A stretch of DNA of 64,000 nucleotides from an uncultured bacterium (GTDB lineage Bacteria; Patescibacteriota; Saccharimonadia; UBA4664), in NCBI GenBank assembly GCA_963720265.1, contig CAVRET010000001.1:5916-69915 (forward strand). The letters are read 5' to 3'. Shown in pieces: positions 20,601-36,996 of the stretch (position 1 is its first letter; each line of letters opens with the position of its first letter). The notes under the pieces are model-generated. The model worked only from the letters and a program-made list of their open reading frames with translations. It had not been told where the DNA came from and searched no databases. Made by a program: the position numbers and the translations under genes.

Positions 20601-22913
20601 AACGCCACATCCGAAGACCCGGCTGCGTTCACGACGAGTCCCAGCTCAACTGGCGAGGCGCTGACGGTGGCAATTGAGCCGCCGGCCGGGGGAGGCTCAC
20701 AAACATATTTGTCGAGCATCGTGTCATCGACGCAAAATTCGAATGGAACGCTTGGGTCGTGGAGCACTGAAGCGAACGCGCTGCCAGCGGTGCGAGCGTT
20801 TACGACTGCCGAGGTGTGGCATAACTGGATTTTTGTGATGGGCGGGATTGCGAGCGGCACGACGGCTCCGGTCGCGACGATTTACCATTCGCAGATTACG
20901 AGTAACGATCCAGGTACTTGGTCGGCGACAACGGATGGGTTGACGGAAGCCCGGTTCGCGGCTTCAGGAGGGATATGGGGGAACTGGCTCTATGTTATAG
21001 GCGGCCAGAGTGTGGCGTTGTCGACTGGCACGTATGTACCAGCGGCGGACGGCATAGAGCAGTTGACTATCACGAATGCCGGCAACATTACTTCAGCGTC
21101 GTCGGTGCAGGATCCTACGGGTCAGTTTTTGACCAGGTTGGACGGCGGGTTTGTGCATAACGGTGTGATTTATACGTTTGGGGGTGAGACGAGCGGATCA
21201 ACTAACGCGGTGGCGACGATTAACTACGCCAATTTGAACTCATCAACCGGTGCGGTGGGGGCATGGACCAATACGAACATTGGGAATATTAGCGGCTCTA
21301 CAGCCGGCTTGGCAACGGCCCGCAACCTGACGACGGCAGTGGACGACGGCGGGAATTTCTATGTGCTCGGAGGCTGTACTTCAACTGTGGCGGCTACCAG
21401 CTTCACAGCCTGTACGGGATTCGTGACGACGGCTAACTCGGTTGAGCTGAATTTGGTGAACAACGGTGGTGATGGGCAGACGAATTCGTTTAATATAGCA
21501 ACGGCGCTGCCAACGGCGACGTCGGATCATGCGGTGGTGGCATACAACGGCTATTTGTATCAGATTGGCGGCTGTACCGCGTATACTTCGGGGGCGTGCT
21601 CGACGTTTTCGTCGACGATTGAGGGAGTGCCGATTAATGCGGATGGGTCATTGGGCACATGGACTACCACTGGCATGACAGCGTTGCCGACGGCAACATC
21701 CTTGGAGCAAGCCGCGGCCTATAACGGGAATATGTACGTGCTCGGTGGGTCTCAGAGCGGATCGACCTCAACGACCACGGTCTGGATTGCGCCGATTTCG
21801 AGCACCGGCACGATTGGAACATGGCTTACGAGTTCGAGCGGGGTGCCTCAATTGACGACGGCGGTGAGTAATTTTGGCGCTGCCATCGCGAATGGGTATT
21901 TGTACGTGGCGGGAGGTAACGATGCGGGCACGTTGCAAACGGGAGTTTACTCTTCGCAGATCAACACGACAACTGGGTCGCTGGGATCGTGGACTTCGAC
22001 GACGGCGCTACCGACGGCCGAAGCCGGCTTTACGCTCATCTCGTACAACGGCTATTTGTACGTGATTGGCGGTTGCTCGGGCTATACCTCGAACGCATGT
22101 ACGAGCGGTGATACGCTGCCGTATATTTCGTATGGATCGACTAACACGAGTGGCGCAGTGGCATCGTGGAATTACACTACAGATGTGCCACAAAGTATGG
22201 TGTCACGTCAGGTAGTGGCTGCCGATGGGTACATGTACTTCATCGGTAATGAGAATGATGGCACCGAGATTAACTATGTGGACGTGAACGCGAATGGTAC
22301 CTTGGGAACGACTATGGATTCGCAGCCAGCGACGGCGGGCGGTCATGCCCATGGGGCAGCGGCTTGGTTTGACGGCTTCTTGTACGTGACGGGCGGGTGC
22401 ACGCTGACCAGCGGGGTGTGTACAACTGCGGGTATTACGACGAGCGACGAGTACGCTGGGCAGGCGGCGATCTCGCGCGTGGGGCACTATTCAAAGTTGT
22501 TTAACACGCAAGTAAATACTTCGCCGAGCCAGCTCGTTCTCAATGGTGCGCTCTCCGGTCCGGGCAGCTCGGTCGCGGTTTTGTTCCGCACTGAGGCTAC
22601 GGGCGCAACACAGTTTGGTGTGCCACAGGTAATTAACCCCGTGATTTTTGGCAACTTCTACAATGTTAAGGCGTTGGATTCGAGCGGGAATAACGTGGGT
22701 ATCGCGTTTAATTATTTGATCATTATTACGCTAGACGACAGTAACTCAGGTACGTTCCCTGATATCACGAGTTCGACTGAGACGAACGTGCAAGATATTA
22801 CCTTGTACTACCATGCCAATCCAGGTCGGCGGCTTCGGCACGGGGCATCGTTTACGAATACTGGGTGTAACGCTACGCCTGCGAACGGCTGCATTCTAGA
22901 TACTGCGCCATAA
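17604..22913 (+). CDS. Giant Kelch-repeat (beta-propeller) surface protein
   Basis: 1769-aa ORF with an N-terminal TM segment (VHAVVIGAIIAMIAAPVLNVWA). About 18 recurrences of the Kelch-type motif (AYNGYLYLIGG, GFNGYLYAVGG, SYQGFLYVMGG, AYNGYVYIAGG, ALNGYLYYLGG, AYNNKLYVIGG, SYNGYLYVIGG …), each followed by Y/W-containing blade segments. The real start is probably downstream of the GTG at 17604. Confidence 0.7.
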   Translation: MGWKLRRTMVMVDTVKVVMVKVWAAMRSWLVSLRPRDVRRWCQYLVRHLSRVDIRKPVHAVVIGAIIAMIAAPVLNVWATDARYDLTADQLSVMEKPAPDLESKLKYYSAKQAIIFNESGAGATDPESGGTLAAEAGGGKDQLYTATMPDDPSQGITVQDNVNQVSVSFTPELSLMNGRAVDNHVVYPLQNQSGVLSFTPKGNGVKEDIVLDSAPGTDTADFQYKLSMPDYVQPRLNDDGSVGFYTADPEFFGDISYGDQKDEDAVNKARMNDPKNYLMFEIPAPYVKDAAGVEATQARFSLSGDQLTVHVTGLDHAAYPLSIDPTFVLSSTSDFVTGSIDDNIDLSVANQIGRSPLSGGSIPTFTASSFDTTSDVFAGALVAYNGYLYLIGGVAGAAGSTTDNQVEYNPINLSTGATTGWTLDSTTLKTGRQGLVAFGFNGYLYAVGGEVATTGVPITTADSVEYAPINSNGTVGTWNYTTGHLNTARSYPAGASYQGFLYVMGGSSGTLDATQLNTYEYAQIEGDGDIASWTQTGNTTFTTARNRFEGAAYNGYVYIAGGLSGVGGTPIVNDDVQYAPITSTGALGNWSTTTSFPTARRNFGLAVNNGYMYVYAGCNQAALGCTGANILADTEYAVINADGSIGQWQETLNYNGADSTREPGGSTFYSNHLYFVAGCNSESGTANECATPLELTFYSTLDSPGRYDRGISNIETTAPYSNNGMTEAKDGGSSVALNGYLYYLGGCSIQNCAGYDNTVEYATLNANGTLGTFSATTSLPSAGSGLGGGRMGASVVAYNNKLYVIGGVANGIFPQVLAVQPTVVGTTSTTHNIAMPTGTVTSGDLLLAIITMTGGTGTTITTPSGWTPITSATNGTTTLISVYAKSAAGTESGTTVNFGTGSNAVAAAQVYQIQNGTWNGGTLTSVIATGTAAASATTAPNPPSVTPGWGAANDLWIAAAGGNTWTAASAYPAGFNSEPDTFTGSGTTGADVVSSITDLNATSEDPAAFTTSPSSTGEALTVAIEPPAGGGSQTYLSSIVSSTQNSNGTLGSWSTEANALPAVRAFTTAEVWHNWIFVMGGIASGTTAPVATIYHSQITSNDPGTWSATTDGLTEARFAASGGIWGNWLYVIGGQSVALSTGTYVPAADGIEQLTITNAGNITSASSVQDPTGQFLTRLDGGFVHNGVIYTFGGETSGSTNAVATINYANLNSSTGAVGAWTNTNIGNISGSTAGLATARNLTTAVDDGGNFYVLGGCTSTVAATSFTACTGFVTTANSVELNLVNNGGDGQTNSFNIATALPTATSDHAVVAYNGYLYQIGGCTAYTSGACSTFSSTIEGVPINADGSLGTWTTTGMTALPTATSLEQAAAYNGNMYVLGGSQSGSTSTTTVWIAPISSTGTIGTWLTSSSGVPQLTTAVSNFGAAIANGYLYVAGGNDAGTLQTGVYSSQINTTTGSLGSWTSTTALPTAEAGFTLISYNGYLYVIGGCSGYTSNACTSGDTLPYISYGSTNTSGAVASWNYTTDVPQSMVSRQVVAADGYMYFIGNENDGTEINYVDVNANGTLGTTMDSQPATAGGHAHGAAAWFDGFLYVTGGCTLTSGVCTTAGITTSDEYAGQAAISRVGHYSKLFNTQVNTSPSQLVLNGALSGPGSSVAVLFRTEATGATQFGVPQVINPVIFGNFYNVKALDSSGNNVGIAFNYLIIITLDDSNSGTFPDITSSTETNVQDITLYYHANPGRRLRHGASFTNTGCNATPANGCILDTAP

Positions 22914-23150: not shown

Positions 23151-24050
23151 CTACGAGTCTGGCGCTTTTGCGATTAAGTGCAAGCCGCGGGGTTTAACGG
23201 GCTCGTCAGGGTTGTCGGCGAATTCTTCGACTATGCGCCAGATGCGTCCCTTGGCGTCATCTCCGGCAAGAAGTTCCGGCAGTGTGGTAGTAGCAAAGAT
23301 TAGTTCATCGTCAAAGGAGTCTTCAAGCTCCCGGGCAAGGCGTTTGCGGAGGCGTTTTTCGACGCTTGGGTGGGCTGCCGCCATCAGGATGGCGGGTAGC
23401 TCGGTGTTTGTTCCGGCCCAGTCGCCGCTGTCGGCATAACCAACGTAATTTTTCGTGCGACGCACGAGCACAAAATACGGCTCGGTGTCTTCAAAAATAT
23501 TCAGGAAGAACTGACGTTCGCCTCGGCTGGTCTGAAGTCGGATATAAGCATCGGGCAGAGGGTGGGGAAAATAGTCGAATTTGTCGTAACCCAGGTCGCT
23601 TTTGGTGAAGAACGATAATTTGTCGCCGTAGAGTTTTTTGAGATTGGTGTAGGCGGTGACCAGGTTGGAACAGTGGATCATAAAGGGTTCTGAACGACCC
23701 TTATCTTTGTAAATGGTTTTGAGGCTAATGGGATCGTCATTGAAGCGGGTGCCGGATGCGGTGAGCGTCCTGGCTCCGGTCGGAGTGAGGTAGTAGGCGG
23801 CCGGCCGGCCGTGGAGCTTGTAGCTTGAGTCATAGCGCTTAGCGATGAGTCCTTGGTCTTCTAGGATACGCAGTCGCTTCTGAACATCTTTGTGACTGTT
23901 CTTGCCAATAAGTGTTGCGACGTGCCGGCTGCTTGCGAATCTGAATTTTCGTAAGGTTTCTAATACGGCCAGCTGTTCGTGGTTTAAGGTTTTTCGGTAT
24001 TTAGGTTGAGATATATCAGCTGGTGGTTGGATGGTTGTGTAGGTTATTGG
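23151..24050 (-). CDS. Replication-relaxation family-like winged-helix protein (plasmid/ICE-type); the open frame has no canonical start codon and may be a pseudogene
   Basis: The listed ORF 23151..23681 continues open in-frame for ~120 more codons upstream to a TGA at about 24051-24053 with no ATG/GTG/TTG. That upstream part reads …LNHEQLAVLETLRKFRFASSRHVATLIGKNSHKDVQKRLRILEDQGLIAKRYDSSYKLHGRPAAYYLTPTGARTL… This matches the Replic_Relax (PF13814) N-terminal wHTH pattern (LT.RDLAILRAL.ELRVLT..QLARLF…RRLRRL.ELGLV.R…P.VY.LT..GARLL) as recalled from memory. Confidence 0.45.
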   Translation of the reverse strand, partial: PITYTTIQPPADISQPKYRKTLNHEQLAVLETLRKFRFASSRHVATLIGKNSHKDVQKRLRILEDQGLIAKRYDSSYKLHGRPAAYYLTPTGARTLTASGTRFNDDPISLKTIYKDKGRSEPFMIHCSNLVTAYTNLKKLYGDKLSFFTKSDLGYDKFDYFPHPLPDAYIRLQTSRGERQFFLNIFEDTEPYFVLVRRTKNYVGYADSGDWAGTNTELPAILMAAAHPSVEKRLRKRLARELEDSFDDELIFATTTLPELLAGDDAKGRIWRIVEEFADNPDEPVKPRGLHLIAKAPDS

Positions 24051-24206
24051 TCATAGGTGATTTGCGGACTTGGTTGGCTAGTACCAAATGCCAACCCCAC
24101 CTACTCCTATGTAAAGAGGATAGGAGAAACGACGATTATGAGAGAATATCAGATGCAGCCGGATAAAGAAAGTTGGGTATCGGCGGAGTATGTTGGAGGC
24201 GCAGAT

Positions 24207-25163
24207 TTATTGCGTTACAAGGTAGTCGAAGCTGAGCACCTGACCGGATGCAGGTACCGGTAAGTTTGCGTGGAGTACGAATGAGCCTGCACTTGGTGAC
24301 ACATACGCCTGAGCGCTGGCGGCGGCCGAGGTGAGGGGGGTGAGCTGCACATGGACGATACCCCCGAAGGCGGCCTTAAAGGTGACGGTAGCAAGCGTGC
24401 CGCCCGGGCTGGTGCCGGTGTTGACGTTGATTTGGCCCGAGGTGTCGTTGCCGGAAATTGAGACGGTGCCACCTGAGCCATCTTGGCCGCCGGCGATTCC
24501 TGGCGTTGGGCCTTGGGTGACGAGATGGCCGACGGTGAGCGGCCCGCTAATTGAAATATTATGCACTGTAATGGTGTTTGCGGTGAGGTTAGCAAAATTG
24601 GTGGCGCCGGAAACCGTGAGACCGCCGAAGGTGGCGAGGCCGGTGACGGTGAGGGCGTTTTGGAATGTGGTAGCACCGGACACGTTTAGGGTCGACGTAG
24701 CCAGGCCGCCGGTGACGTTAAGCTGGTTTAAAGTAGAGTTGCCGGTGGCGTCAAGTTTGCCGCCGACGGTGAAGTTGCCGACCACATCGGCTTGGCCGCG
24801 GAACAGCGCGTCGGCCGAAACATCGAGTACCTCGTTGCTGGTGCCGAGGTTGGTGCCGATTTGGCCGAGCTTTTGCAGATCGGATGGCGATAGGGTCTGA
24901 ACTGTCGGGCCCTGAGCGGAGGTTGGCACTGGTTTGCGGCTTTGCTCAATAAAATAGCCAGTGACGGCACCAACAGCCAGGAGAAAAATAAACAGCGTGC
25001 CAATGCTGGCAACAAGGCTGGCGCGCCGGCTGAGATCATTCCATCGGTTATCGGAGTGGAAGCCGGGGATTTGAAACGACTTCTTCGGTCGTTTTGGCGG
25101 TGGCGCCGCGACGGGAGTTTTTACCAGCAACGGATTGGGATTGTCGTTTTCGTCGGGCGGCAT
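24207..25163 (-). CDS. N-terminally membrane-anchored protein with beta-helix-like LxVxG repeats, hypothetical
   Basis: Pro-rich N-terminus and a TM helix (LVASIGTLFIFLLAVGAVTGYFI). Repeats follow: GNFTVGGKLDATGNSTLNQLNVTGGLATSTLNVSGATTFQNALTVTGLATFGGLTVSGATNF…. Confidence 0.5.
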   Translation of the reverse strand: MPPDENDNPNPLLVKTPVAAPPPKRPKKSFQIPGFHSDNRWNDLSRRASLVASIGTLFIFLLAVGAVTGYFIEQSRKPVPTSAQGPTVQTLSPSDLQKLGQIGTNLGTSNEVLDVSADALFRGQADVVGNFTVGGKLDATGNSTLNQLNVTGGLATSTLNVSGATTFQNALTVTGLATFGGLTVSGATNFANLTANTITVHNISISGPLTVGHLVTQGPTPGIAGGQDGSGGTVSISGNDTSGQINVNTGTSPGGTLATVTFKAAFGGIVHVQLTPLTSAAASAQAYVSPSAGSFVLHANLPVPASGQVLSFDYLVTQ

Positions 25164-25254
25164 GCGCGCTCACAATGGTTATGCTTACGAGAATTTTACC
25201 ACAAAGCGTAAGGGGATTTGCACGGCGGCGTTGTTTGCGTCAAGATGGAGAGTG

Positions 25255-26091
25255 ATGAGAGGGTGGGGACGACAGTTTGCATGCGTGTTTTTGGCATCGC
25301 TCGTAGTGTCGGGCGTGGCTTTGGCGACCTCAGACCCGACCATGACGAGCACAAGCTGGAGCGCGGTCGAGACCGAGTTGGGCGGGAACGGCTGCAACAA
25401 CTCTGCCTCAGGTTGCGGAGTTTCGACCGACTATTCGTTGAAACCGAGCACTGATGACGGCGGCGCAAGCGCGGGCGAAGCGGCGGTAGGGAATTCGAGT
25501 TCTACGGACTACCAGACCAACGCCGGCTTTAACACGACGGCCCAGCCGGGGTTGGCGATGACGGTCAATTCGTCATCGATGAACCTCGGTGTGCTTTCTA
25601 CCGCAACAACGAGCTCAACAACCGCGACCTTTACGGTTTCGGATTATACGTCGTACGGCTACATTGTGCAGATATACGGCAATCCTCCCACGTATGGAGG
25701 CCATACCTTAACCGCGATGGGTAACAACACCTCACCCGCAACGGCCGGGACAGCAGAGCAATTTGGTATTAATCTGCGAGCGAACAACAGCCCAAGCGTT
25801 TCGGGATCGGCGGACCCGCTTGAGGTGCCAGACAATGAGCCGTTTGGATCGTCCAAGTTTAGTTATGGTCAGGCGGGGAATTACGCCCAGGGGGGTACAA
25901 CGTATGGTACGAACCGGACATACACGGTACCTAATGAGTACACCTATAGTTCAGGCGATACGATTGCTTCGTCATCGCAGACTACCGGGCCGACGCTGTT
26001 TACTATAAGTTTCCTGGCGAACATCAAAAACAATACTCCGGCCGGTGTTTATACCGGCAGTTTGAGCTTAATCGCGACCGGAACGTATTAA
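25255..26091 (+). CDS. Secreted WxL-like surface protein, first paralog of locus B (C-terminal …YTGSLSLIATGTY)
   Basis: ORF 25135..26091; the likely start is the ATG at 25255 (MRGWGRQFACVFLASLVVSGVALA signal peptide). Shares EQFGINLRANNSPSVSGSADP with the locus B paralogs (FGINLRANTSPS) and SSSTDY with 127..1164. Confidence 0.6.
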   Translation: MRGWGRQFACVFLASLVVSGVALATSDPTMTSTSWSAVETELGGNGCNNSASGCGVSTDYSLKPSTDDGGASAGEAAVGNSSSTDYQTNAGFNTTAQPGLAMTVNSSSMNLGVLSTATTSSTTATFTVSDYTSYGYIVQIYGNPPTYGGHTLTAMGNNTSPATAGTAEQFGINLRANNSPSVSGSADPLEVPDNEPFGSSKFSYGQAGNYAQGGTTYGTNRTYTVPNEYTYSSGDTIASSSQTTGPTLFTISFLANIKNNTPAGVYTGSLSLIATGTY

Positions 26092-26348: not shown

Positions 26349-27244
26349 GAACCCATTTCAAATCTCCACCCTCCTCAGACAGATAAGCAGGCAGGCCAAG
26401 TCAACAACAGCCTGAAACATGCACTTCTTTCGTTCCCAGCGGTAACGTAGTTTGCGAAAGTACTTCAGCCATGCATTGGTGCGTTCGACAACAGCCCGAA
26501 ACTTAGCTTTGACTTTGTCGTAGTTGGGCTTGCGTCCCAGTTTACGCCGGTGCTTGTACTTACGTTCAGGAATATTCGTTTTAATGCCGCGTCCGCGTAA
26601 GTTTCGGCGAAAAGCCGCGCTGTCGTAGCCTTTGTCCGCGTTAAGCTCGACAACCCGTCGCTTCGCTCCAACCCGAATCTTGCGGATGGTAGCTTCGGCA
26701 CTCACGAGGTCGTGCCGGTTACCTTTGGCAAGGACATTAGCAAGTGGCAGTCCCTGCTTGTCGGTCACCAAGGACATATTCGTGCCAGTTCGGTGGTGTT
26801 TGTTGGAGAAGCCAGTCCCCTCATATTTGGGTGACTGAATGAGTGAACCATCCAAGTGGCCGAGGCTCAGGTCGAGTTTGCCTTGCCGGTCAAGCAGAAG
26901 TAGGATTTGCTGCCAAACCAGTTTGAGCGCACCCCGGCTGCGCTAGTAACCCAGCCTCCGCCAGCATGATGCGTATCCATGGCCGCAAATGGAGGGTGGG
27001 ATATCTTGCCACCGGCAGCCAGTTTTGAGCACAAACAGAACTCCGTTGAGAAGCTCATTATTAGGTGTGACTGGTTTAGTCTTGCTGGCTGGCGGCTGGG
27101 GGAGCTGAGCTGCCAACCAGTCATATTGTGGCTGGCTTAAAAAGAACGTAGCATTATTCACTGGGTAGTACCCTTGTTTGTTTTGGTTTACAAACGGATG
27201 CTACCCAATCTGTATTATTGGCTCAAGAGATTTGAAATGGGTTC
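26349..27244 (-). mobile_element. IS5-family insertion sequence (896 bp) with perfect 18-bp terminal inverted repeats
   Basis: Left end GAACCCATTTCAAATCTC (about 26349-26366) and right end GAGATTTGAAATGGGTTC (about 27227-27244) are exact reverse complements. The element encodes an IS5/DDE_Tnp_1 transposase (N-terminal ELLNGVLFVLKTGCRWQDIP hallmark). The transposase stop codon lies inside the left IR. Confidence 0.7.
26358..27161 (-). pseudogene. IS5-family transposase interrupted by one in-frame TAG
   Basis: The N-terminal ORF 26943..27161 (…CGHGYASCWRRLGY*) and the C-terminal ORF 26358..26855 are in the same frame. They are separated by only the TAG plus 29 sense codons (RSRGALKLVWQQILLLLDRQGKLDLSLGH), so the read-through product would be a continuous ~267-aa DDE transposase. 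Confidence 0.6.
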
Positions 27245-27410
27245 TATGACACTAACTCTGTATCGATGAGTGGGGACGGTACGACCGTGAGTCTGTCGAC
27301 ACTTGCGAGCAATCTTGTGTCAGGTGACACTAACTCTAATCGGGATGTTATTGCTGCCCAAACCGGGAATAGTGCGGTCACGTACTGTTCACTGTAAGCA
27401 TCTCGTTTAG

Positions 27411-27439
27411 AAAAGCCGGGTTTTATCCCGGCTTTTCTG
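27411..27439. terminator. Bidirectional intrinsic-terminator-like hairpin (AAAGCCGGG-ttttat-CCCGGCTTT) flanked by A/T runs
   Basis: Perfect 9-bp GC-rich stem with a T-run on the + side (cttttctg) and an A-run on the other side. Intergenic position between the IS and locus B. Confidence 0.45.
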
Positions 27440-27463
27440 TCGTTACATGTTGTAAAAATTGCG

Positions 27464-27493
27464 TTGACTTGTCCATAGTGCTTAAGCTAAAAT
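27464..27493 (+). promoter_or_regulatory. Sigma70-like promoter candidate for the locus B operon (TTGACT-N18-TAAAAT)
   Basis: The hexamers were read directly about 40 nt upstream of ATG 27532. RBS AAGGA lies 8-10 nt before the ATG. Confidence 0.4.
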
Positions 27494-27531
27494 TTAGCCA
27501 AGTACCATTTTAAGTACCATTAAGGAAAAAT

Positions 27532-28686
27532 ATGAGTAGTAGAAGGGCAATCCTGCGGGATCATTACCTCGGTCTGTTCAGAAGGGCTGGCACCTGGGCT
27601 GGTCTCGTTTCGATCTTGGCAACAATGTTTGTGGCGGCTCCGGCGCTGGCGCTCGGCCAGCTTACGACGAGATCGGCAACGCTGAGTAATCCGGCGGCCG
27701 GTGCGACCACCGATAACATTGCCGTCAAGTTCACGCTTGGAACATCGGGACAAACGATTGCAGGTTTGGGATTTCAAATCTGCGACTCTCCATTGCCGGG
27801 AGCTTGTGCAAATACCGGTACCTCATCGGGTGAGAACTTTTCGACTGTATCAACGGTGGCTACTGTAGTCAGCGGTGGTGGTTCATGGACCAATGGTTCG
27901 ACTTGTAGCACTTTAGGCACAACCCACACAGGTAACTTGCTTGAGGTGAACTGTACTTCACAAGCAGTGACAGGAACGCCGACTGCAACAGTGACGATAA
28001 CCGGTGTAACCAACCCGTCGGCTAATGGCGAGTGGTATATACGTGTGAACACCTACACCGCAGCCAACGATGGTGGTACTGACACTGACCAGGGTGCAAT
28101 GGCGGTTGACACGAACAACCAGCTGAGTGAGTCGGCTACCGTTCAGGAAAGTCTGGTCTTTGCAGTTGGTTTGTCAGGGTCAACTTGCGCAGGCATCTCG
28201 GGTGGTCCGTCGGTGACCCTGAGCAATTCTTCGCCTATGTCTACCGCTTCGACTGCCGCAGGTACTGGTCTCCTATGCGCGAACACAAACGCCGGTTCTG
28301 GCTATGTCATTGCTTATAACGGCGCTGCTTTCGCCGGAGGCGGCACAACCTTTCCGACGATACCGTCTCCAACAACTGGATTCACATCAACCGCTGGTTC
28401 GCAACAGTTTGGCTTCAACCTCGTCGATGTTGCTGAGAATGAAGTGAGTGGTAGTAGTTCTGTTGGCAAATGCGACTCCGGTGCCGGCGCCGATACAGGT
28501 TCATATTGCACGTCAAGCAAATATAACTACGACACGTCCGCAGGCTTCCACCAGATCGCATCAAGTGAAGGTGCGCCTAGCAATGACACGATCTACACGG
28601 TGACCTATAAGGCAAACATTGACAACACAGTCCAAAAAGGTACTTATACAGCTACGCAGACGTTCGTTTGTACTGGTACGTTTTAA
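27532..28686 (+). CDS. Secreted WxL-like surface protein (C-terminal …KGTYTATQTFVCTGTF)
   Basis: Signal peptide, then a conserved post-cleavage motif QLTTRSATLSN. Shares the QESLVFAVG block, TNAGSGYVIAY and QQFGFNL with its paralogs. Confidence 0.7.
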   Translation: MSSRRAILRDHYLGLFRRAGTWAGLVSILATMFVAAPALALGQLTTRSATLSNPAAGATTDNIAVKFTLGTSGQTIAGLGFQICDSPLPGACANTGTSSGENFSTVSTVATVVSGGGSWTNGSTCSTLGTTHTGNLLEVNCTSQAVTGTPTATVTITGVTNPSANGEWYIRVNTYTAANDGGTDTDQGAMAVDTNNQLSESATVQESLVFAVGLSGSTCAGISGGPSVTLSNSSPMSTASTAAGTGLLCANTNAGSGYVIAYNGAAFAGGGTTFPTIPSPTTGFTSTAGSQQFGFNLVDVAENEVSGSSSVGKCDSGAGADTGSYCTSSKYNYDTSAGFHQIASSEGAPSNDTIYTVTYKANIDNTVQKGTYTATQTFVCTGTF

Positions 28687-28719
28687 GTAAGGTAAAAAGG
28701 AAACAGGCAAGAAAAAGCA

Positions 28720-29877
28720 ATGCCGAGCAGAAGTCAAATCCTGAAAACGCACTATGTAAAAGTATTACAGAAGGCAGCAACGTGGGTTGGGCTTGGTTCC
28801 CTGGTGGCGATGACTCTGGTGGCGGCACCGGCTAGCGCGGGCGGGGCTCAGATTACGAATCGTTCAACGACCTTAAGTAGCTCAAGTGCAGCATCTAGCA
28901 ATGCGACGACATCGTATGCGTTGAGCTTCAAATTACCTTCGAGTGGCGCAACTATTGAGGCGTTGATGTTCCAGGTCTGTACCTCGCCGCTGGAGACAAC
29001 GTCTTGCTCGACTCCTACGGGCGCGTCTTTGAGTGCGGGTCCGGTAACACTATCGGCGCAGGGCGGGCAGTTTTCCGGCTGGACGCTGGGTGCTGGTACG
29101 CCACCGGCGCCGACTGCGAACACGGCCTATATTTTTAATGCCTCCGGTTTTTCTGAAAATACCTCAACTACCCAAGCGTTGACTTTCAACAATATCCAGA
29201 ACCCAACTACCGTAAATCAGGAATACTACGTTCGCATAACTACGTATACGGGATACAACGGTAGCGGCGGTACGGGTGAGCAAGACTTTGGCGCGATGGC
29301 GGTTGCAACCACTCAGTCGCTGAGTGTAGACGCTAATGTGCAGGAGTCGCTCGAGTTTTGTGTGGGCACGGTTTCGGCGCCGTCTAACTGCGGGGCCGAA
29401 TCGGGTAGCACCGTGAATATCGGCAGTGGCACCGATAACGTGTTGTCGTCGTCTGCTCCGTCGGGTGCCATTTCGACGATGATTGCTGACACTAATGCTA
29501 CGACCGGGTATGTTATTACGTACTATGCGGGCAATCTGTCGTCGTCAAGCGATACGATTACAGCGATTGCCGGCACTCCGACAACGTTCCCGTCGGCTGG
29601 TACGGCTGCGTTTGGCATTAATTTACGCGCAAATACGAGCCCAAGTATTACGAACTCGGCTGATAAGGCCGGCTCCGGATCGGGAGCTGTGGCGGCTAAC
29701 TACAACACCGTCAACCAGTTTGCCTTTGTGCCTTCTACCACTACCACGGTGGCAACGGCTAGCGCTCCGACCGTGGCTAACACCTACACGGTGTCTTATG
29801 CCGCTCAAGCTGGATCGACGACAAAGCCTGGCGCCTTTGCCACGAGTTTCAACTATGTGGCGACCGGCACATTCTAA
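28720..29877 (+). CDS. Secreted WxL-like surface protein (C-terminal …PGAFATSFNYVATGTF)
   Basis: Signal peptide plus QITNRSTTLSS, QESLEFCVG, TNATTGYVITY and AAFGINLRANTSPS. Paralog of its neighbours. Confidence 0.7.
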   Translation: MPSRSQILKTHYVKVLQKAATWVGLGSLVAMTLVAAPASAGGAQITNRSTTLSSSSAASSNATTSYALSFKLPSSGATIEALMFQVCTSPLETTSCSTPTGASLSAGPVTLSAQGGQFSGWTLGAGTPPAPTANTAYIFNASGFSENTSTTQALTFNNIQNPTTVNQEYYVRITTYTGYNGSGGTGEQDFGAMAVATTQSLSVDANVQESLEFCVGTVSAPSNCGAESGSTVNIGSGTDNVLSSSAPSGAISTMIADTNATTGYVITYYAGNLSSSSDTITAIAGTPTTFPSAGTAAFGINLRANTSPSITNSADKAGSGSGAVAANYNTVNQFAFVPSTTTTVATASAPTVANTYTVSYAAQAGSTTKPGAFATSFNYVATGTF

Positions 29878-29905
29878 ACTAAACCCGTAATCCTTTTAGT
29901 AAGCC

Positions 29906-31030
29906 ATGAAGACAAAACCACTCACAAAAACACTCATTGCAAAACTATCGATACTTGGGCTGCTGGCTTCGACTTTCGTGCCATTGGTTGCGAATGCGGC
30001 AACGGGTCAGCTTTCACCGCGTAGTGCGACGCTCAGTACTTCGGTGGCTGGTGCGACGGCTGTGACAGCCACATTTAAGTTTACGCCGAGTGCGGCTAAC
30101 AGCGGCGCGACCATTAAGGGCATCAAGTTTCAGATGTGCAATTCGCCGGTAGAGACGACAACTTGTACGATCCCCGACGGCACCTCGACCATGGCGTCGG
30201 CCACGGCTGGAAGCGAGTCGGGAACGGATATGACAAATACATATGGCAGTCCATCGTATAATGGCGCGACGGATGTCACATTTACGAATGCGACCGGGAA
30301 CGTGTTTAATTCTGGCGACGGCATCGAAACATTTGCGGTGCAGAATATCACCTTGCCTGCAACTGCAAATACCGAATTTTACTTCCGTATCACGACGTAT
30401 AACAGTAGCTCGACCTTTAATGGCGCGACCGAGGTGGATTACGGCGGTATTGCGGTCAGTACCGCGCAGCAGATTACCATAACCGGCACAATGCCGGAAA
30501 GCCTGGTGTTCTGTGTCGGCACGAGCGGCTCGAATTGCGGCAACATTACCGGCTCGAGCGTGGCACTGGGTACGTTTAGCCCAACGTCGACGAATACTGG
30601 TACGAGCGTCATGGATGTGAGTACGAATGCCGGGTCGGGGTATGCCATTACGCTCAGTGGGACGGTGCCGACCTCGGGTTCGAATACGATTCTGGCCATG
30701 GGGACGCAGAGCGCCAACTCGTCCGGCTGTGCGGTAAGTTGTACCTCAACGACCGGCACGAGCCAATTTGGCAGCAATGTGCGCACTAACACTTCGCCCA
30801 GCGTGGGTGCCGATGTAACGCCGACCGGCGGCGGCTTCAACGGCGCAGGCTCAGGCGGCTACAATACGCCAAATAGCTTCCGTTTCTTTACGGGCGATAC
30901 GGTGGCGGGCTCGAGCCAAGTGAGCAACGCACAGTTGTTCACCAATTCTTACCTTGTGAACGTAGCAGGATCGCAAGCGGCTGGTCTGTACACCGCGACC
31001 ATGACGTATATTTGCACGGCTACGTTCTAA
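29906..31030 (+). CDS. Secreted WxL-like surface protein (C-terminal …AGLYTATMTYICTATF)
   Basis: Signal peptide plus QLSPRSATLST, PESLVFCVGTSGSNCG, TNAGSGYAITL and SQFGSNVRTNTSPS. Confidence 0.7.
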   Translation: MKTKPLTKTLIAKLSILGLLASTFVPLVANAATGQLSPRSATLSTSVAGATAVTATFKFTPSAANSGATIKGIKFQMCNSPVETTTCTIPDGTSTMASATAGSESGTDMTNTYGSPSYNGATDVTFTNATGNVFNSGDGIETFAVQNITLPATANTEFYFRITTYNSSSTFNGATEVDYGGIAVSTAQQITITGTMPESLVFCVGTSGSNCGNITGSSVALGTFSPTSTNTGTSVMDVSTNAGSGYAITLSGTVPTSGSNTILAMGTQSANSSGCAVSCTSTTGTSQFGSNVRTNTSPSVGADVTPTGGGFNGAGSGGYNTPNSFRFFTGDTVAGSSQVSNAQLFTNSYLVNVAGSQAAGLYTATMTYICTATF

Positions 31031-31061
31031 ATAACGGCCGCAGCTCGGGAACAGCGACATA

Positions 31062-32108
31062 ATGGAAACAAACAAACAATCCAGGTTTGCCCGATTCATC
31101 ACCTTGGTGGTCATGGGGCTTATGTTGTGCGTGTCGACTGGGTCGGTTCAGGCGGCGGGGCTGTCGAGCCGTTCGGATACAATGAGTACGTCGCAGGCGA
31201 GCGTGACAGCTACGCATGTGTTTGCGTTTACAACCGCGACCACGGCTAACATTGGCTCGATTGGGCTGACGTTTTGCACGACGGCCAACGGGAGCTGCAC
31301 AATGCCGCTTGGCCTCGTAACCACAAGTGCGACTCTGACGGGCCAAACCGGGATTAGCGGGTTTACACTGAACAACGCAACCAACGGCGCGCCTTTCATT
31401 TTGAACAACGGCGCGCCGCAGGTGACCTTAAACACTGCGGTGACGGCGACACTGACCGGCGTAACCAACCCATCGGCCGTGAACACGACGTTTTTCGTGC
31501 GCATCACAACTTACACAGGCACAGATGGTGCGACCGGACCAGTGGATACGGGTAATGTGGCGGTGTCGACCGCGCAGCCGATTCAGTTGACCGGCGTAAC
31601 GCCGGAAATCTTGGTGTTTTGCGTCGGTATCACGATTACGAGCGACTGCACTACGGTGAGCGGCAACTCGATTGACTTTGGTGATTTTGACCCGTTGTCG
31701 ACCAAATCGGGCACCAGCGTGATGCAGGCGAGTACCAATGCCGGTGGCGGCTACAACGTTACAGTGAATGGTACGACCTTGCAGTCGGGCGCCAATAGTA
31801 TAGGGGCATTGGCCGCGCAGACCGCATCGGCGACTGGTGCGCCGCAATTTGGCCTTAACCTGCGGGCCAATACGACCCCGGCGGTCGGAGCTGACCCGTC
31901 GACCGGTAGCGGCGCAATCGGCACGTATAGTGCTCATTATGGTACGGCTAACCAGTATCGGTTTGTGACCGGTGATGCGGTCGCGACATCGGCCGGACCA
32001 AGCAATGCTAACACGTTTACTTCGAGCTACATTGTGAACATTCCGAGCTTGCAGGCGGCGGGTACTTACACGTCGACCATGACGTACATTTGCACGGCCA
32101 ATTTCTAG
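31062..32108 (+). CDS. Secreted WxL-like surface protein (C-terminal …AGTYTSTMTYICTANF)
   Basis: Signal peptide plus GLSSRSDTMSTS, PEILVFCVG, TNAGGGYNVTV and PQFGLNLRANTTPA. Confidence 0.7.
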   Translation: METNKQSRFARFITLVVMGLMLCVSTGSVQAAGLSSRSDTMSTSQASVTATHVFAFTTATTANIGSIGLTFCTTANGSCTMPLGLVTTSATLTGQTGISGFTLNNATNGAPFILNNGAPQVTLNTAVTATLTGVTNPSAVNTTFFVRITTYTGTDGATGPVDTGNVAVSTAQPIQLTGVTPEILVFCVGITITSDCTTVSGNSIDFGDFDPLSTKSGTSVMQASTNAGGGYNVTVNGTTLQSGANSIGALAAQTASATGAPQFGLNLRANTTPAVGADPSTGSGAIGTYSAHYGTANQYRFVTGDAVATSAGPSNANTFTSSYIVNIPSLQAAGTYTSTMTYICTANF

Positions 32109-34920: not shown

Positions 34921-35802
34921 ATGGCAGACAAACGGCGAGGATTAGGACGGGGCTTTGATTCGCTTATTCCGACGCAGCTCGTGGAGGCAGAATTTGATGT
35001 AACAGCCGACAACGACGAAGGTAACATGCGCGAGATTGCGTGCGAGCTGATCGACCCTAATCCGCACCAGCCGCGGACTGAGTTTAACGAAGAAGCACTG
35101 CAGGCGTTGGCAGCCAGCATTCGAGTGCACGGGATTTTGCAGCCGCTGGTAGTTACGAGGGCGGGTACGCGGTTTGAGCTAATCGCAGGCGAGCGGCGTC
35201 TGAGGGCGGCCAAGATTGCCGGGTTTGACAGCGTGCCGGTGATCGTGCGCAGCTTTGACGAGCAAGAGAAGCTGGAGCTCGCGCTGATTGAGAATATCCA
35301 GCGCGAAGATTTGAACTTACTCGAGGTGGCAACGGCGTACCGCAAGTTGACGGATCAGTTTAATTTGACGCTTGATACAATTGGCAAGAAGGTGGGAAAG
35401 TCGGTGCCGTCGATTTCAAACACGATGCGGCTGCTCAATTTGCCGCCGGCGGCCAAGCGGGCGCTCGTGGACGGGGTAATTACGGAAGGGCACGCGCGGA
35501 TCATTTTGAGCTTGGACGAGCCGCATAAGCAAATGGAGCTGCTCAGGCTTATGCTGGAGCGGCATTGGACCGTTCGCCAGGCTGAGGAATACGCTCGTGG
35601 CTACCGCGGCGAGGCAGGGTCCAAGATGGCAGCTGAGGCCCGGATTGCGAGCACCAACCAGCTCACCAAGAGCCTGTCCGACTATTTGGGCGCACACGTT
35701 ATGCAGCGGCATACTGCTAAGGGCGGGCGGCTCATTATTGAATATACATCCGAGGATGAGCTGGAACGGATCTATCGCGCGATTCACCGTGAAGCGGACT
35801 AA
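34921..35802 (+). CDS. parB: Chromosome-partitioning protein ParB/Spo0J
   Basis: LIAGERRLRAAKIAG ParB box and an HTH region. Adjacent to parA. Confidence 0.85.
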   Translation: MADKRRGLGRGFDSLIPTQLVEAEFDVTADNDEGNMREIACELIDPNPHQPRTEFNEEALQALAASIRVHGILQPLVVTRAGTRFELIAGERRLRAAKIAGFDSVPVIVRSFDEQEKLELALIENIQREDLNLLEVATAYRKLTDQFNLTLDTIGKKVGKSVPSISNTMRLLNLPPAAKRALVDGVITEGHARIILSLDEPHKQMELLRLMLERHWTVRQAEEYARGYRGEAGSKMAAEARIASTNQLTKSLSDYLGAHVMQRHTAKGGRLIIEYTSEDELERIYRAIHREAD

Positions 35803-36136
35803 GGTTATTTAGGGCAAAAGATGAGCCATCGGGCGGTGCGCCGATGGCTTTGGTGGTGATTCCCGCGCAGGTTGGCGGAAAATTATAGTATTGATTTGGG
35901 GCGACAGGGGCGCGCGCGACGTTTAACGTTCTTGGAACGTACGCGCGCGGCCCTGCCTTACCTTTATATAGACCGGTCCTGGATTCTCGCATGCGCCGCG
36001 TGGGGTTAGCATCTAACCCATATGATCACCCCTTAGTTCGTGGACGGACGGACCGTCCGGATGGGCAAGGGATGTGGGACTAGCAGAATACGGTCATACG
36101 GTTCACCTCCAAGGCTGAACGGTCTTGCTGGTGATT

Positions 36137-36249
36137 GGTGGCGGGGCTGGGAATTGAACCCAGGCATGCCTTTTCGGGTGGGCTCTTCGCCGCCGTTGGG
36201 TCGAGGTACCCCGGGGAAGTTACTTGCGCATCCCCTGGTATGCCCGCCA
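36137..36249 (-). ncRNA. tRNA-like element with a canonical T-arm, acceptor 3' strand and encoded CCA; the full cloverleaf is not recoverable
   Basis: The minus-strand RNA ends …CUGGGUUCAAUUCCCAGCCCCGCCACCA (5-bp T-stem, UUCAAUU loop, 7-nt acceptor strand, A73, CCA). A matching 5' strand GGCGGGC exists 113 nt upstream with one C·C mismatch. A nearer GGCGGCG gives only a 59-nt minihelix. Neither option yields standard D/anticodon arms. Confidence 0.3.
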
Positions 36250-36261
36250 GGAATGATATTA

Positions 36262-36996
36262 CTAAAGAATCTTAACTTGGTCGAGAGGAAGGAGTCGCAG
36301 GACCGCGTTGCCGATGATGTAGCTGGAGGGGAGCTCGCCCCATTCGCGCGAATCGAAGCTCCCGCCGGGTGTGCGGTTGTCGCCCATGACGAACAGGTTG
36401 TCGGGCTGCACCACTTCATCGGTATCGATAAGCGTTTGGGTGCCGGCGGGCTCGAAGCCGGCGTCGGGGTTGTAGCCGTCCGGGTGCTCTTTGTTATAAA
36501 CCGTAACCGTGCCGTTCTTGATCACAATATGATCACCGGGGAGGCCGATAACGCGCTTCACAAAGATTTTGGTGGGATCTTTGGGGTAGTGGAAGACGAT
36601 AATCTCGCCGCGGGCGGCTAGATACGGATCGTTGCGGTGGAAGACATCACGGGCTATGAGCGCTTCGGTGTAGCCGACTTTGGAAACGATGAGATAGTCG
36701 GCGTTGTGAAGCGTCGGCTGCATGCTGGTGCCGAGCACGTGGTAGGCCTGGAAAACAAAGTTGTGCAGAATTAAGACAACCGCGATTGGAAAGATGATCC
36801 AGGAGAAGATCGCTCCGAGGACCGCCCCAAAACCGGAAGCAATGCCCGACAGCGCTGAGCCGGTATCAGGGTCGTCGGACGGTGCTGGTTGAGCAGTAGG
36901 GTTAGCTGGAGGCTGGGACGGCGTTTGCGGGGCTGGTGAGGGCGGCGGGGGAGTAGGCCCGGCCGGTGGGGTCGGAGATTGGTTTTGTTCGTCCAT
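36262..36996 (-). CDS. lepB: Signal peptidase I
   Basis: GTSMQPTL (catalytic Ser box), KRVIGLPGD and GDNR…SFDSR boxes. N-terminal Pro-rich low-complexity region and a TM segment. Confidence 0.85.
   Translation of the reverse strand: MDEQNQSPTPPAGPTPPPPSPAPQTPSQPPANPTAQPAPSDDPDTGSALSGIASGFGAVLGAIFSWIIFPIAVVLILHNFVFQAYHVLGTSMQPTLHNADYLIVSKVGYTEALIARDVFHRNDPYLAARGEIIVFHYPKDPTKIFVKRVIGLPGDHIVIKNGTVTVYNKEHPDGYNPDAGFEPAGTQTLIDTDEVVQPDNLFVMGDNRTPGGSFDSREWGELPSSYIIGNAVLRLLPLDQVKIL

What the first reader, a model, noticed from the sequence alone, without database searches (positions are those of the whole stretch)
35803..36261. 460-bp GC-rich non-coding gap after parAB containing a tRNA-like T-arm/acceptor/CCA module that does not fold as a normal tRNA
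On the minus strand the RNA would end …CUGGG-UUCAAUU-CCCAG-CCCCGCC-A-CCA. That is a textbook T-arm plus acceptor strand plus discriminator plus encoded CCA.

The only complementary 5' strands are GGCGGCG 59 nt upstream (a minihelix lacking D and anticodon arms) or GGCGGGC 113 nt upstream (too long, with no U8 or D-arm). There is no room for a ~350-nt tmRNA before lepB, and no tag ORF was seen.

Candidates are a degenerate tRNA or att-site remnant, a tmRNA-like or split RNA piece, or a tRNA-like structural element.

The same gap also carries an imperfect 13-bp inverted repeat (CGCGCGCGACGTT…AACGTACGCGCGCG, about 35,895-35,940) and a GGACGGaCCGTCC palindrome (about 36,045).
Basis: seen in the sequence. 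Interest (0 to 1): 0.55.

Follow-up and report, generated by a model that had tools for sequence, protein, structure and literature searches.

The report
Orphan tRNA tail fragment in spacer
A 28-base piece that exactly matches the tail end of a methionine-type tRNA gene sits alone in a 459-base stretch that only this Saccharibacteria genome carries between two conserved genes; it is most likely a leftover of DNA rearrangement and not a working tRNA or tmRNA.

Summary
On the minus strand, 36163..36136 reads CTGGG-TTCAATT-CCCAG-CCCCGCC-A-CCA: a T-arm, a 3' acceptor strand, a discriminator base and CCA. It occurs once in the window and in none of 100 shuffles. In 622 kb of control loci, 8 of the 9 other instances of this motif class lie in called tRNA genes; the ninth abuts a locus end.

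It is not a gene that any detector recognises. ARAGORN finds nothing down to 80% thresholds. Rfam finds nothing at gathering score and gives no tRNA-model hit. The best weak hit is permuted tmRNA (RF04321) at 21.6 bits against a cut-off of 47. Position 70 is G, so there is no G3:U70 pair, and no tag reading frame exists.

Similarity to real tRNAs, nearly all tRNA-Met(CAU), covers only the last 27-28 nt and stops sharply at the T-stem.

The organism is a Candidatus Saccharimonadia (CPR) bacterium. Its closest relative (ParB 84% identical) has the same gene order, with parB and lepB 3 nt apart. Other syntenic relatives have 5-88 nt there, and one has 406 unrelated nt. The whole 459 nt is therefore lineage-specific, and an independent assembly confirms it.

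No homologue, integrase or cognate tRNA was found nearby. Best reading: an orphan tRNA-gene 3' fragment left by recombination, lying in the lepB 3' region before a terminator. Interest is low.

The parts
35803..36261 (.). 459-nt lineage-specific filler between the stop codons of the convergent genes parB and lepB
   Evidence: The ParB 84%-identical relative (L081-83) has the same LepB C-terminus with only 3 nt between the genes. Other syntenic relatives have 5, 74, 77 and 88 nt, and L084 has 406 unrelated nt. The gap is identical in an independent assembly, L235. It has no copy elsewhere in the window. No homologue was found in phages, plasmids or viral contigs; the metagenome scans used only the T-arm/acceptor module as the pattern; the six-frame translation was searched against 5.8 billion predicted proteins.
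36136..36163 (-). tRNA 3'-end module: T-arm (CTGGG/TTCAATT/CCCAG), acceptor 3' strand CCCCGCC, discriminator A, CCA
   Evidence: unique in the window, 0 of 100 shuffles. (this motif class marks real tRNAs in 8 of 9 other cases). (the same 3' end occurs mainly in tRNA-Met(CAU) genes). (a tRNA-Met profile aligns positions 50-76 only).
36242..36248 (-). GGCGGGC, candidate 5' acceptor strand (113-nt RNA); 6 of 7 pairs, C.C mismatch at 7:66
   Evidence: I4. The 114-nt fold has z = -1.0. ARAGORN uses this strand only in intron mode at 80% threshold, in the same run as an obviously spurious call. Chance-level complementarity.
36188..36194 (-). GGCGGCG, candidate 5' acceptor strand (59-nt minihelix-like RNA); 6 of 7 pairs, C.C mismatch at 6:67
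   Evidence: mascRNA-menRNA model, 21.5 bits against a cut-off of 42.5. (58-nt fold z = -0.9; the acceptor stem is absent from the minimum-energy structure).
36103..36134 (-). Local hairpin directly after CCA (UCACC...GGUGA). It contains GGAGGUG (36110-36104), which the permuted-tmRNA model aligned as a 5' acceptor strand
   Evidence: dG -10.8, z = -2.0. In the model alignment, pairing with CCCCGCC has two mismatches (A3.G70 and U6.C67).
36003..36074 (-). Two further hairpins. The first encloses the GGACGG/CCGUCC palindrome; the second is GGGUUAG-AUG-CUAACCC
   Evidence: dG -30.6, z = -2.2.
35900..35962 (-).
   Evidence: I1; dG -37.2 kcal/mol, z = -5.4, 0 of 200 shuffles.
35814..35849 (-). Intrinsic-terminator-like site: 9-bp stem AGCCAUCGG/CCGAUGGCU followed by CAUCUUUUGC. 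It would end lepB-strand transcription before it runs antisense into parB
   Evidence: dG -17.8, z = -4.5.
36262..36996 (-). lepB (signal peptidase I, S26), the flanking gene upstream on the same strand as the module
   Evidence: PF10502, 2.1e-39. The C-terminus ...LRLLPLDQVKIL matches the relative's ...LRLLPLDQVRIL.
34921..35802 (+). parB, the convergent flanking gene
   Evidence: ParB_N, HTH_ParB, ParB_C. In one search, all the named homologues are Candidatus Saccharimonadia/Saccharibacteria.

Best explanation
The module is a truncated 3' end of a tRNA gene of the CAU-anticodon class (tRNA-Met or tRNA-Ile2 type). It keeps only the T-arm, the 3' acceptor strand, the discriminator base and the encoded CCA. 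It sits inside a 459-bp piece of DNA that entered the parB/lepB spacer only in this Saccharimonadia lineage.

It is not a working tRNA or tmRNA. It is a by-product of recombination: either a tRNA-gene fragment of the kind carried in the attP/att sites of integrase-driven elements, or a piece of a tRNA locus captured by illegitimate recombination.

Shown:
- tRNA-derived sequence
- a sharp homology boundary at the T-stem
- absence of the gap from relatives that keep the same gene order
- no detectable gene model

Inferred:
- The region is probably transcribed as a lepB 3' extension, up to the hairpin-plus-U-tract terminator at 35849-35814.
- That terminator, which keeps the convergent genes apart, is probably the only functional part of the insert.
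- The T-arm may form as a hairpin in that RNA but has no demonstrated role.
For: (1) The sequence is tRNA-derived, not a chance match. It is unique in the window with 0 of 100 shuffles. In control DNA the same motif class falls in called tRNA genes in 8 of 9 other cases.

(2) The relaxed pattern GGTTCAATTCCNNNCCCCGCCA found 112 metagenome stretches and 33 viral stretches. These are overwhelmingly tRNA-Met(CAU) genes: ARAGORN called 44 tRNA-Met among the 80 metagenome loci listed, plus 7 Phe, and many of the uncalled ones show CTCATAA anticodon loops.

(3) Homology ends abruptly. BLAST similarity to those loci never exceeds about 28-46 nt. An nhmmer tRNA-Met profile aligns model positions 50-76 only. 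The retained 28 nt are flawless while nothing upstream aligns. That fits a breakpoint, not gradual decay.

(4) No gene model fits.

(5) The insert is lineage-specific but real.

(6) The Islander paper (PMC4383910) documents that integration at tRNA genes leaves 3' tRNA-gene fragments. It counts 3760 of 3919 islands with a 3' fragment and 1836 with the crossover in the T-stem region. That is the extent seen here.

(7) A terminator closes the unit on the same strand.

(8) Mobile DNA is active nearby: there is a truncated DDE transposase at 26358-26855. An unrelated 406-nt filler sits at the same junction in relative L084.
Against: No cognate full-length tRNA gene, integrase or island lies next to the fragment. 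The 28 kb on the tRNA-upstream side, plus 7 kb beyond the window, hold only core genes (RF1, L31, sigma-70, S2, EF-Ts, RRF, MreBC, PBP2 and others) and no tRNA. Both flanks keep the same gene order in relatives. The classical 'displaced fragment at the end of a resident island' is therefore not what is here, and the route by which the fragment arrived is inferred.

The source of the 459 nt was not found anywhere.

The insert is unusually structured for junk (z = -3.8) and is organised on one strand from lepB to a terminator. That would also fit a small RNA gene.

The exact 26-mer was not found in JGI metagenomes. No donor tRNA with an identical 3' end is known. The rest of this genome could not be searched.
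Confidence: 0.6

Rival explanations
1. A functional tRNA-like RNA element. The acceptor-like stem (GGCGGGC or GGCGGCG paired with CCCCGCC), stacked on the T-arm and ending in ACCA, would mimic a tRNA minihelix. RNase P and 3' trimming or CCA enzymes would then cut the lepB transcript there, as with eukaryotic MALAT1/mascRNA or plant-mitochondrial t-elements. This would set the lepB mRNA 3' end and release a small CCA-tailed RNA and/or the structured 320-nt downstream RNA.
For: The T-arm and ACCA are perfect. Six of 7 acceptor pairs are possible with two alternative 5' strands. The full-length mascRNA-menRNA model matches at 21.5 bits, E=0.09. The gap as a whole folds far better than shuffles (z = -3.8). 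The unit runs on one strand from the lepB stop to a terminator. A weak promoter-like TCGACC-17-TAATAT would place a start near G36248; this is my own reading of the sequence, and at 8 of 12 matches it falls below the scanner's threshold.
Against: There is no conservation at all. The element is absent from every relative examined, including the closest. The sub-RNAs fold no better than shuffles (z -0.9 to -1.3), and the acceptor stem is not in the minimum-energy structure of the 58-mer. The complementarity is at chance level. The mascRNA score is half the cut-off, and that family is eukaryotic. There are no expression data.
Confidence: 0.2
2. An in-situ decayed, once complete tRNA gene (a pseudogene) that lay between lepB and parB in this lineage and lost its 5' two-thirds by mutation or internal deletion.
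For: GGCGGCG at 36194-36188 differs by one base from the expected 5' strand GGCGGGG. By eye, the 24 nt between it and the T-arm contain ACCCGAA-AAGG, which resembles the ...AACCCGAAGGTC of the tRNA-Met anticodon-stem and variable region. Other Patescibacteria carry tRNA-Met genes in the parA neighbourhood.
Against: The profile search finds no alignment upstream of position 50. The Rfam tRNA model gives no hit at E<=10. The retained part is flawless while the rest is unrecognisable, which is not how neutral decay looks. No relative has a tRNA gene at this junction.
Confidence: 0.1
3. A circularly permuted (two-piece) tmRNA gene or its pseudogene. The acceptor piece would end at CCA (36136). The coding piece would start at GGAGGUG (36110) and run about 300 nt to the terminator.
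For: Rfam RF04321 (tmRNA_permuted) gives 21.6 bits, E=0.027 on the 701-nt region, aligning the T-arm, ACCA, a 25-nt loop and GGAGGUGAA. About 28 true tRNAs, 17 of them with the same T-loop and acceptor strand, gave no RF04321 hit at E<=10, so the downstream part adds score. The overall dimensions (113 + 320 nt, many hairpins, a terminator) resemble a permuted ssrA gene.
Against: The score is less than half the gathering cut-off of 47, and scaled to the whole window E would be about 2.5. Position 70 is G, so no G3:U70 alanine identity pair is possible; the aligned acceptor stem has A3.G70 and U6.C67 mismatches. GGAGGUG is instead sequestered in a local hairpin. No reading frame ends in a tag-like peptide. 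ARAGORN finds no tmRNA even at 70% thresholds. In Patescibacteria, 5252 of 5275 catalogued tmRNAs are the standard one-piece form, and tmRNA covariance models are known to give false positives on tRNAs (PMC11915505). The element is absent from relatives.
Confidence: 0.04
4. A chance resemblance with no tRNA ancestry.
For: None beyond the lack of a full gene model.
Against: Zero of 100 shuffles contain the motif. By my own estimate the generic motif is expected about 0.002 times per window. The module is 96% identical over 28-29 nt to real tRNA-Met genes. The motif class marks real tRNAs in control DNA.
Confidence: 0.01

Closest known systems
3' end of bacterial and phage tRNA-Met(CAU) / tRNA-Ile2-type genes (5' GGCGGGG ... 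CCCCGCC-A-CCA 3')
   Same: The T-stem, the T-loop TTCAATT, the acceptor 3' strand CCCCGCC, discriminator A and encoded CCA match. Identity is 96-100% over 25-29 nt to tRNA-Met genes in metagenome and viral contigs such as L096, L108, L210 and L217.
   Different: There is no D-arm, no anticodon arm and no matching 5' acceptor strand. ARAGORN and RF00005 do not call it.
tRNA-gene (tDNA) 3' fragments created by tyrosine-integrase elements (attP / displaced fragment; Islander signature, PMC4383910)
   Same: It is a terminal 3' fragment that begins in the T-stem region and runs through the 3' end, lying in DNA that relatives lack.
   Different: Within the 35 kb examined on the expected side there is no integrase, no island and no cognate full-length tRNA gene. 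Both flanks are conserved core genes. The accompanying foreign DNA is only about 430 nt.
Circularly permuted two-piece tmRNA (Rfam RF04321; alpha-, beta-proteobacteria, cyanobacteria)
   Same: A T-arm plus ACCA is followed by a short loop and a G-rich strand resembling GGGGGUGAA. There is room for a coding piece, and a terminator follows.
   Different: The score is 21.6 bits against 47. There is no G3:U70, the acceptor stem has two mismatches, there is no tag frame and ARAGORN makes no call. The host phylum uses standard tmRNA.
tRNA-like small RNAs and processing signals (mascRNA/menRNA RF01684; about 65-nt CDS-less mini-tmRNAs mentioned in PMC11915505)
   Same: The size (59 nt) and layout (acceptor-like stem plus T-arm without a proper D-arm) are similar, and the mascRNA model aligns over its full length.
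   Different: The score is sub-threshold (21.5 against 42.5). mascRNA is a eukaryotic family. The stem carries a C.C mismatch and is not favoured thermodynamically. Nothing is conserved.

Membership tests
tRNA gene | T-arm with the TTCRANY loop, a 7-nt 3' acceptor strand, a discriminator base and (in this phylum) an encoded CCA | tested here: met
tRNA gene | A 7-bp acceptor stem formed with a 5' strand at tRNA distance (about 66 nt upstream) | tested here: not met
   The only candidates lie 59 and 113 nt from the 3' end. Each gives 6 of 7 pairs with a C.C mismatch.
tRNA gene | D-arm, U8 and an anticodon arm; recognition by ARAGORN or Rfam RF00005 | tested here: not met
   ARAGORN finds none at default, 95, 90 or 80% thresholds. 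RF00005 gives no hit at E<=10. The tRNA-Met profile aligns positions 50-76 only.
tmRNA, permuted two-piece form (RF04321) | Score at or above the family gathering threshold (47 bits) across the tRNA-like domain | tested here: not met
   21.6 bits, covering model positions 36-98 of 213.
tmRNA, permuted two-piece form (RF04321) | G3:U70 alanine identity pair in the acceptor stem | tested here: not met
   Position 70 is G (36142). The model alignment gives A3.G70.
tmRNA, permuted two-piece form (RF04321) | A tag reading frame with a resume codon and a stop, encoding a degradation tag (typically ending in Ala-Ala or hydrophobic residues) | tested here: not met
   All stop-terminated frames downstream of CCA were listed. 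None is tag-like. ARAGORN tmRNA at 70% thresholds.
tmRNA, permuted two-piece form (RF04321) | The SmpB partner present, and no other ssrA in the genome | not testable with these tools
   No smpB was found in the window by tblastn. In the phylum, 5252 of 5275 catalogued tmRNAs are the standard form.
Island-displaced tRNA-gene (tDNA) fragment (Islander signature) | The fragment is a terminal (3') piece of a tRNA gene, starting at the anticodon-loop or T-stem region | tested here: met
Island-displaced tRNA-gene (tDNA) fragment (Islander signature) | A cognate full-length tRNA gene upstream on the same replicon, in the same orientation | tested here: inconclusive
   None lies in the window or in 7 kb beyond it. 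The remaining ~500 kb of the contig could not be read.
Island-displaced tRNA-gene (tDNA) fragment (Islander signature) | A tyrosine integrase gene and foreign DNA between the tRNA gene and the fragment | tested here: not met
   36-64 kb holds only core housekeeping genes and no integrase domain. The flanks keep the same gene order in relatives.
mascRNA-type tRNA-like small RNA (RF01684) | Score at or above the gathering threshold (42.5 bits) | tested here: not met
   21.5 bits. The fold has z = -0.9.

The most novel reading that the evidence does not exclude
The gap could be a self-contained, recently acquired ~430-nt structured RNA gene, starting near 36248 and ending at the terminator at 35814. 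Its first 113 nt would form a CCA-ended tRNA-like domain with an expanded core. That would make it a previously unseen tRNA-mimic RNA in Saccharibacteria, for example a non-alanine, tag-less relative of two-piece tmRNA, or a mascRNA-like element that is cut out by RNase P and tRNA 3'-end enzymes. No homologue would yet exist in the databases.
Probability: 0.07. Interest if true: 0.7.

Novelty: new member of a known kind. Interest (0 to 1): 0.2.

Why it matters
If the main reading is right, the value is practical.

- It shows that a textbook T-arm/acceptor/CCA signature can be an orphan tRNA-gene fragment that no annotation tool reports.
- It shows that the new permuted-tmRNA covariance model can give a suggestive sub-threshold hit on such a fragment.
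- It marks the parB/lepB junction of soil Saccharimonadia as a place where unrelated filler DNA has been inserted at least twice. That is a small data point on how these reduced genomes acquire DNA; published work, cited here from memory, suggests they are naturally competent.

Only if the fragment proved to be expressed and processed would it matter more widely. It would then be a bacterial counterpart of tRNA-like 3'-end processing elements, or a new tRNA mimic.

Tried and rejected
- **Permuted tmRNA.** I followed the RF04321 hit. I listed all reading frames, checked the 3:70 pair, lowered ARAGORN thresholds, looked for smpB, ran a control on about 28 true tRNAs and read the paper behind the model. 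Rejected: the defining features are not met.
- **tRNA with an intron or insertion.** ARAGORN intron mode at 80% gives a 99-nt 'tRNA-Arg' with a 14-nt intron, alongside an obviously spurious 502-nt-intron call. Rejected.
- **Conservation through gene order.** Seven relatives were fetched through ParB. None shares the gap, so no covariation test was possible.
- **Homologues by DNA.** The exact 26-mer found nothing in viral contigs or JGI metagenomes. Other gap segments found nothing in viral contigs. One 21-mer hit (L237) lies inside a 458-aa ORF with no T-arm beside it, and a 31-nt match in L017 lies inside a coding ORF with no extended similarity. Both are chance. BLAST against phages and plasmids found nothing.
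- **Hidden or decayed protein gene.** Pfam on the gap ORFs found nothing. A concatenated six-frame translation searched against 5.8 billion proteins found nothing at E<=0.1.
- **Mobile-element signatures.** There is no copy elsewhere in the window and there are no terminal inverted repeats. The 12-nt direct repeat AATCACCA[G/C]CAA, 275 nt apart, is at chance level, with about 0.3 such pairs expected.
- **Homology with the other long fillers.** L084 and L201 score the same as shuffles.
- **Extending the contig to find the cognate tRNA.** The left-end protein is not on record. The right end gained 7 kb with no tRNA. The cluster look-up gave no accession.
Full report
**What is there.** Read on the minus strand, window 36163..36136 is CTGGG-TTCAATT-CCCAG-CCCCGCC-A-CCA. 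This is a perfect 5-bp T-stem with a canonical T-loop, a 7-nt acceptor 3' strand, a discriminator A and CCA. The pattern GGTTCRANYCC-N11-CCA occurs once in the 64-kb window and in none of 100 dinucleotide-preserving shuffles.

As a specificity control I scanned 622 kb (the window plus 89 parB-linked loci) for the generic motif: a 5-bp stem, TTCRANY, the matching stem, 7 nt, N, CCA. It occurs 10 times. Eight are inside ARAGORN-called tRNA genes and one abuts a locus end. The only clear orphan is this one.

The GC-rich inverted repeat forms a hairpin at about 35900-35962 (dG -37 kcal/mol, z = -5.4). The palindrome GGACGGACCGTCC is at 36046-36058.

**No gene model fits.**
- ARAGORN finds no tRNA or tmRNA in the whole window, nor in the region at 95, 90 or 80% of its thresholds. 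At 70% it makes only spurious tRNA calls and still finds no tmRNA.
- Rfam 15 at gathering thresholds finds nothing in the window.
- In permissive mode on 35700-36400 there are three weak hits: tmRNA_permuted RF04321 (21.6 bits, cut-off 47, E=0.027), mascRNA-menRNA (21.5 bits, cut-off 42.5) and a plus-strand artefact. The tRNA model RF00005 does not appear at E<=10.
- The two possible 5' acceptor strands are GGCGGCG (36194-36188) and GGCGGGC (36248-36242). Each gives 6 of 7 pairs with a C.C mismatch.
- The 58-, 114- and 125-nt candidate RNAs fold no better than shuffles (z -0.9 to -1.2).

**The tmRNA lead.** In a circularly permuted gene, however, the coding piece follows the CCA, and about 320 nt lie between the CCA and a terminator-like hairpin at 35849-35814. 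The RF04321 alignment uses the T-arm, ACCA, a 25-nt loop and GGAGGUGAA. About 28 genuine tRNAs, 17 of them carrying the same T-loop and acceptor strand, gave no RF04321 hit at E<=10. The downstream part therefore does contribute score.

The defining tmRNA features still fail:
- Position 70 is G, so no G3:U70 pair is possible. The aligned stem has A3.G70 and U6.C67 mismatches.
- GGAGGUG is instead paired in a local hairpin with UCACC just after the CCA.
- None of the stop-terminated frames downstream encodes anything like a tag.
- No smpB is in the window.
- The paper that built RF04321 says the model covers only the tRNA-like domain and that tmRNA covariance models give many false positives on tRNAs. 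Its table lists 5252 standard against 20 permuted tmRNAs in 6765 Patescibacteria genomes (PMC11915505).

I reject membership and give the tmRNA reading about 4%.

**What the fragment derives from.** The exact 26-mer has no match in IMG/VR or in JGI metagenomes. The relaxed pattern GGTTCAATTCCNNNCCCCGCCA has 112 metagenome matches and 33 viral matches. Among the 80 metagenome loci listed, ARAGORN tRNA-Met(CAU) and 7 tRNA-Phe. Many of the uncalled ones visibly carry CTCATAA anticodon loops. The viral ones are phage tRNA-Met genes, and two of them (L210, L217) have the identical CTGGG/CCCAG T-stem.

Similarity between the gap and any of these loci never extends beyond 28-46 nt. A profile built from the tRNA-Met genes aligns only model positions 50-76 to the gap. 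That profile was made from pattern-selected sequences, so the match itself is expected; the informative point is where the alignment stops. A flawless 28 nt next to nothing recognisable looks like a breakpoint, not like slow decay of a complete gene.

**Context.** ParB homologues place the window in Candidatus Saccharimonadia (TM7, CPR); all named hits are Saccharimonadia or Saccharibacteria. The neighbourhood (PKD-domain protein, parA, parB, then lepB on the opposite strand, an LCP-family protein, HtrA) is conserved in relatives.

| Relative | ParB identity | Spacer between parB and lepB |
|---|---|---|
| L081-83 (closest) | 84% | 3 nt (TAA-AAA-TCA), same LepB C-terminus |
| L198 | about 73% | 5 nt |
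| L200 | about 71% | 74 nt |
| L199 | about 72% | 77 nt |
| L085 | about 71% | 88 nt |
| L084 | about 73% | 406 nt, unrelated (alignment score equals shuffles), no T-loop motif |

The complete 459 nt is therefore an insertion specific to this lineage. An independent assembly from another run (L235, Logan ERR11523669) is identical over 2882 nt including the gap, so the insert is real.

The gap has no second copy in the window. It has no BLAST match in phage or plasmid collections and no Pfam signal in any frame. No predicted protein among 5.8 billion resembles its six-frame translation. Two short matches (L017, L237) fall inside unrelated coding regions and are chance.

**Is it the end of a resident island?** The Islander signature is a full tRNA gene, an island with a tyrosine integrase, and a displaced terminal fragment. 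The fragment is usually 3' and often starts in the T-stem region (PMC4383910). The fragment type fits, but the rest does not. The 28 kb on the expected side carry only core genes: prmC, RF1, L31, sigma-70, gmk, S2, EF-Ts, RRF, uppS, rseP, a class II aminoacyl-tRNA synthetase and mreBC. They contain no integrase. There is no tRNA gene in the window or in 7 kb beyond it. Both flanks keep the same gene order in relatives.

The fragment must therefore have arrived as part of a short piece of DNA. That piece could be the att region of an element that was later lost, or a piece captured by illegitimate recombination. I cannot tell which.

Mobile DNA is active nearby: a truncated DDE transposase lies at 26358-26855. 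The same junction received different filler in L084.

**How it most likely works.** It probably does nothing as a tRNA. The insert lies directly downstream of lepB on the same strand and ends in a good intrinsic-terminator-like hairpin with a U-tract. I infer that it is transcribed as a lepB 3' extension, and that the terminator, which separates the convergent genes, is the only functional part.

The whole gap is strongly structured (z = -3.8). This comes mainly from the long GC hairpin and the terminator (z = -5.4 and -4.5).

A functional tRNA-mimic remains possible. RNase P and CCA-end processing could define the lepB 3' end, in the manner of mascRNA. This has no support from conservation or thermodynamics, and I give it about 20%.

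**Verdict.** The feature is a real, tRNA-derived but orphan 3' fragment of the tRNA-Met(CAU) type, inside a lineage-specific spacer insertion. It is a new instance of a known kind of relic, and interest is low (0.2). The decisive tests are a whole-genome tRNA and tmRNA scan of the source contig, an nt/WGS search with the 459 nt, and transcript-end mapping.

Noticed in passing
window 26358-26855 (-), with 26856-27531: A truncated DDE transposase (PF01609, 3.5e-17; only 165 aa) sits in a low-GC patch (26-28 kb, GC 0.49). It is followed by 676 nt without a long ORF. This is probably a decayed IS element about 9 kb from the gap.
   Followed up: partly
window 27532-32108 (+), also 25135-26091: A tandem array of four paralogous 348-385-aa proteins with no Pfam domain (35-46% identity to each other), plus a weaker fifth copy. 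It lies just upstream of the PKD-domain protein and parAB. The gene calls for relatives L081-L084 also show 338-348-aa ORFs without Pfam hits in this position, though their relationship to the array was not tested.
   Followed up: partly
window 10473-17603 and 17604-22913 (+): Two adjacent giant ORFs. The first (2376 aa) has no Pfam hit; the second (1769 aa) has Kelch repeats. They may be surface or host-interaction proteins of this episymbiont lineage.
   Followed up: no
L084 3898-4303 (relative, ParB about 73% identical): A different, unrelated 406-nt filler occupies the same parB/lepB junction. It has a promoter-like TCGACC-17-TATAAT immediately after the lepB stop and a terminator about 190 nt later, so it may be an independent small RNA unit. 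The junction looks like an insertion hot spot.
   Followed up: partly
window 36125-36136 and 35850-35861: A 12-nt direct repeat (minus strand AATCACCAGCAA / AATCACCACCAA) lies 275 nt apart. The first copy starts at the last A of CCA and the second sits just before the terminator. Removing the interval would place the terminator 13 nt after the tRNA end, as at a normal tRNA gene. About 0.3 such pairs are expected by chance, so this is only a hint of a nested insertion.
   Followed up: partly
window 1-64000 and L236 (7 kb beyond the right end): There is no tRNA or tmRNA gene in about 71 kb of a small CPR genome. GC skew is positive throughout the window, so no replication origin or terminus switch occurs despite the presence of parAB.
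   Followed up: no
window 5069-6015, 7411-8440, 9446-9981, 23682-24206, 62793-63504: A crude caller (90 aa minimum) finds no ORF in several stretches of 0.5-1 kb. At least the last is an artefact, because gene calls on L236 place a 674-aa PBP2 gene there. The others were not examined and gave no Rfam gathering-level hit.
   Followed up: no
window 36099-36113 (-): A Shine-Dalgarno-like GGAGGUG is followed 7 nt later by AUG and a 5-codon mini-ORF (MTVFC*). A direct repeat CCGUAU x2 overlaps it. The GGAGGUG is sequestered in the hairpin after the CCA. This is probably fortuitous.
   Followed up: no
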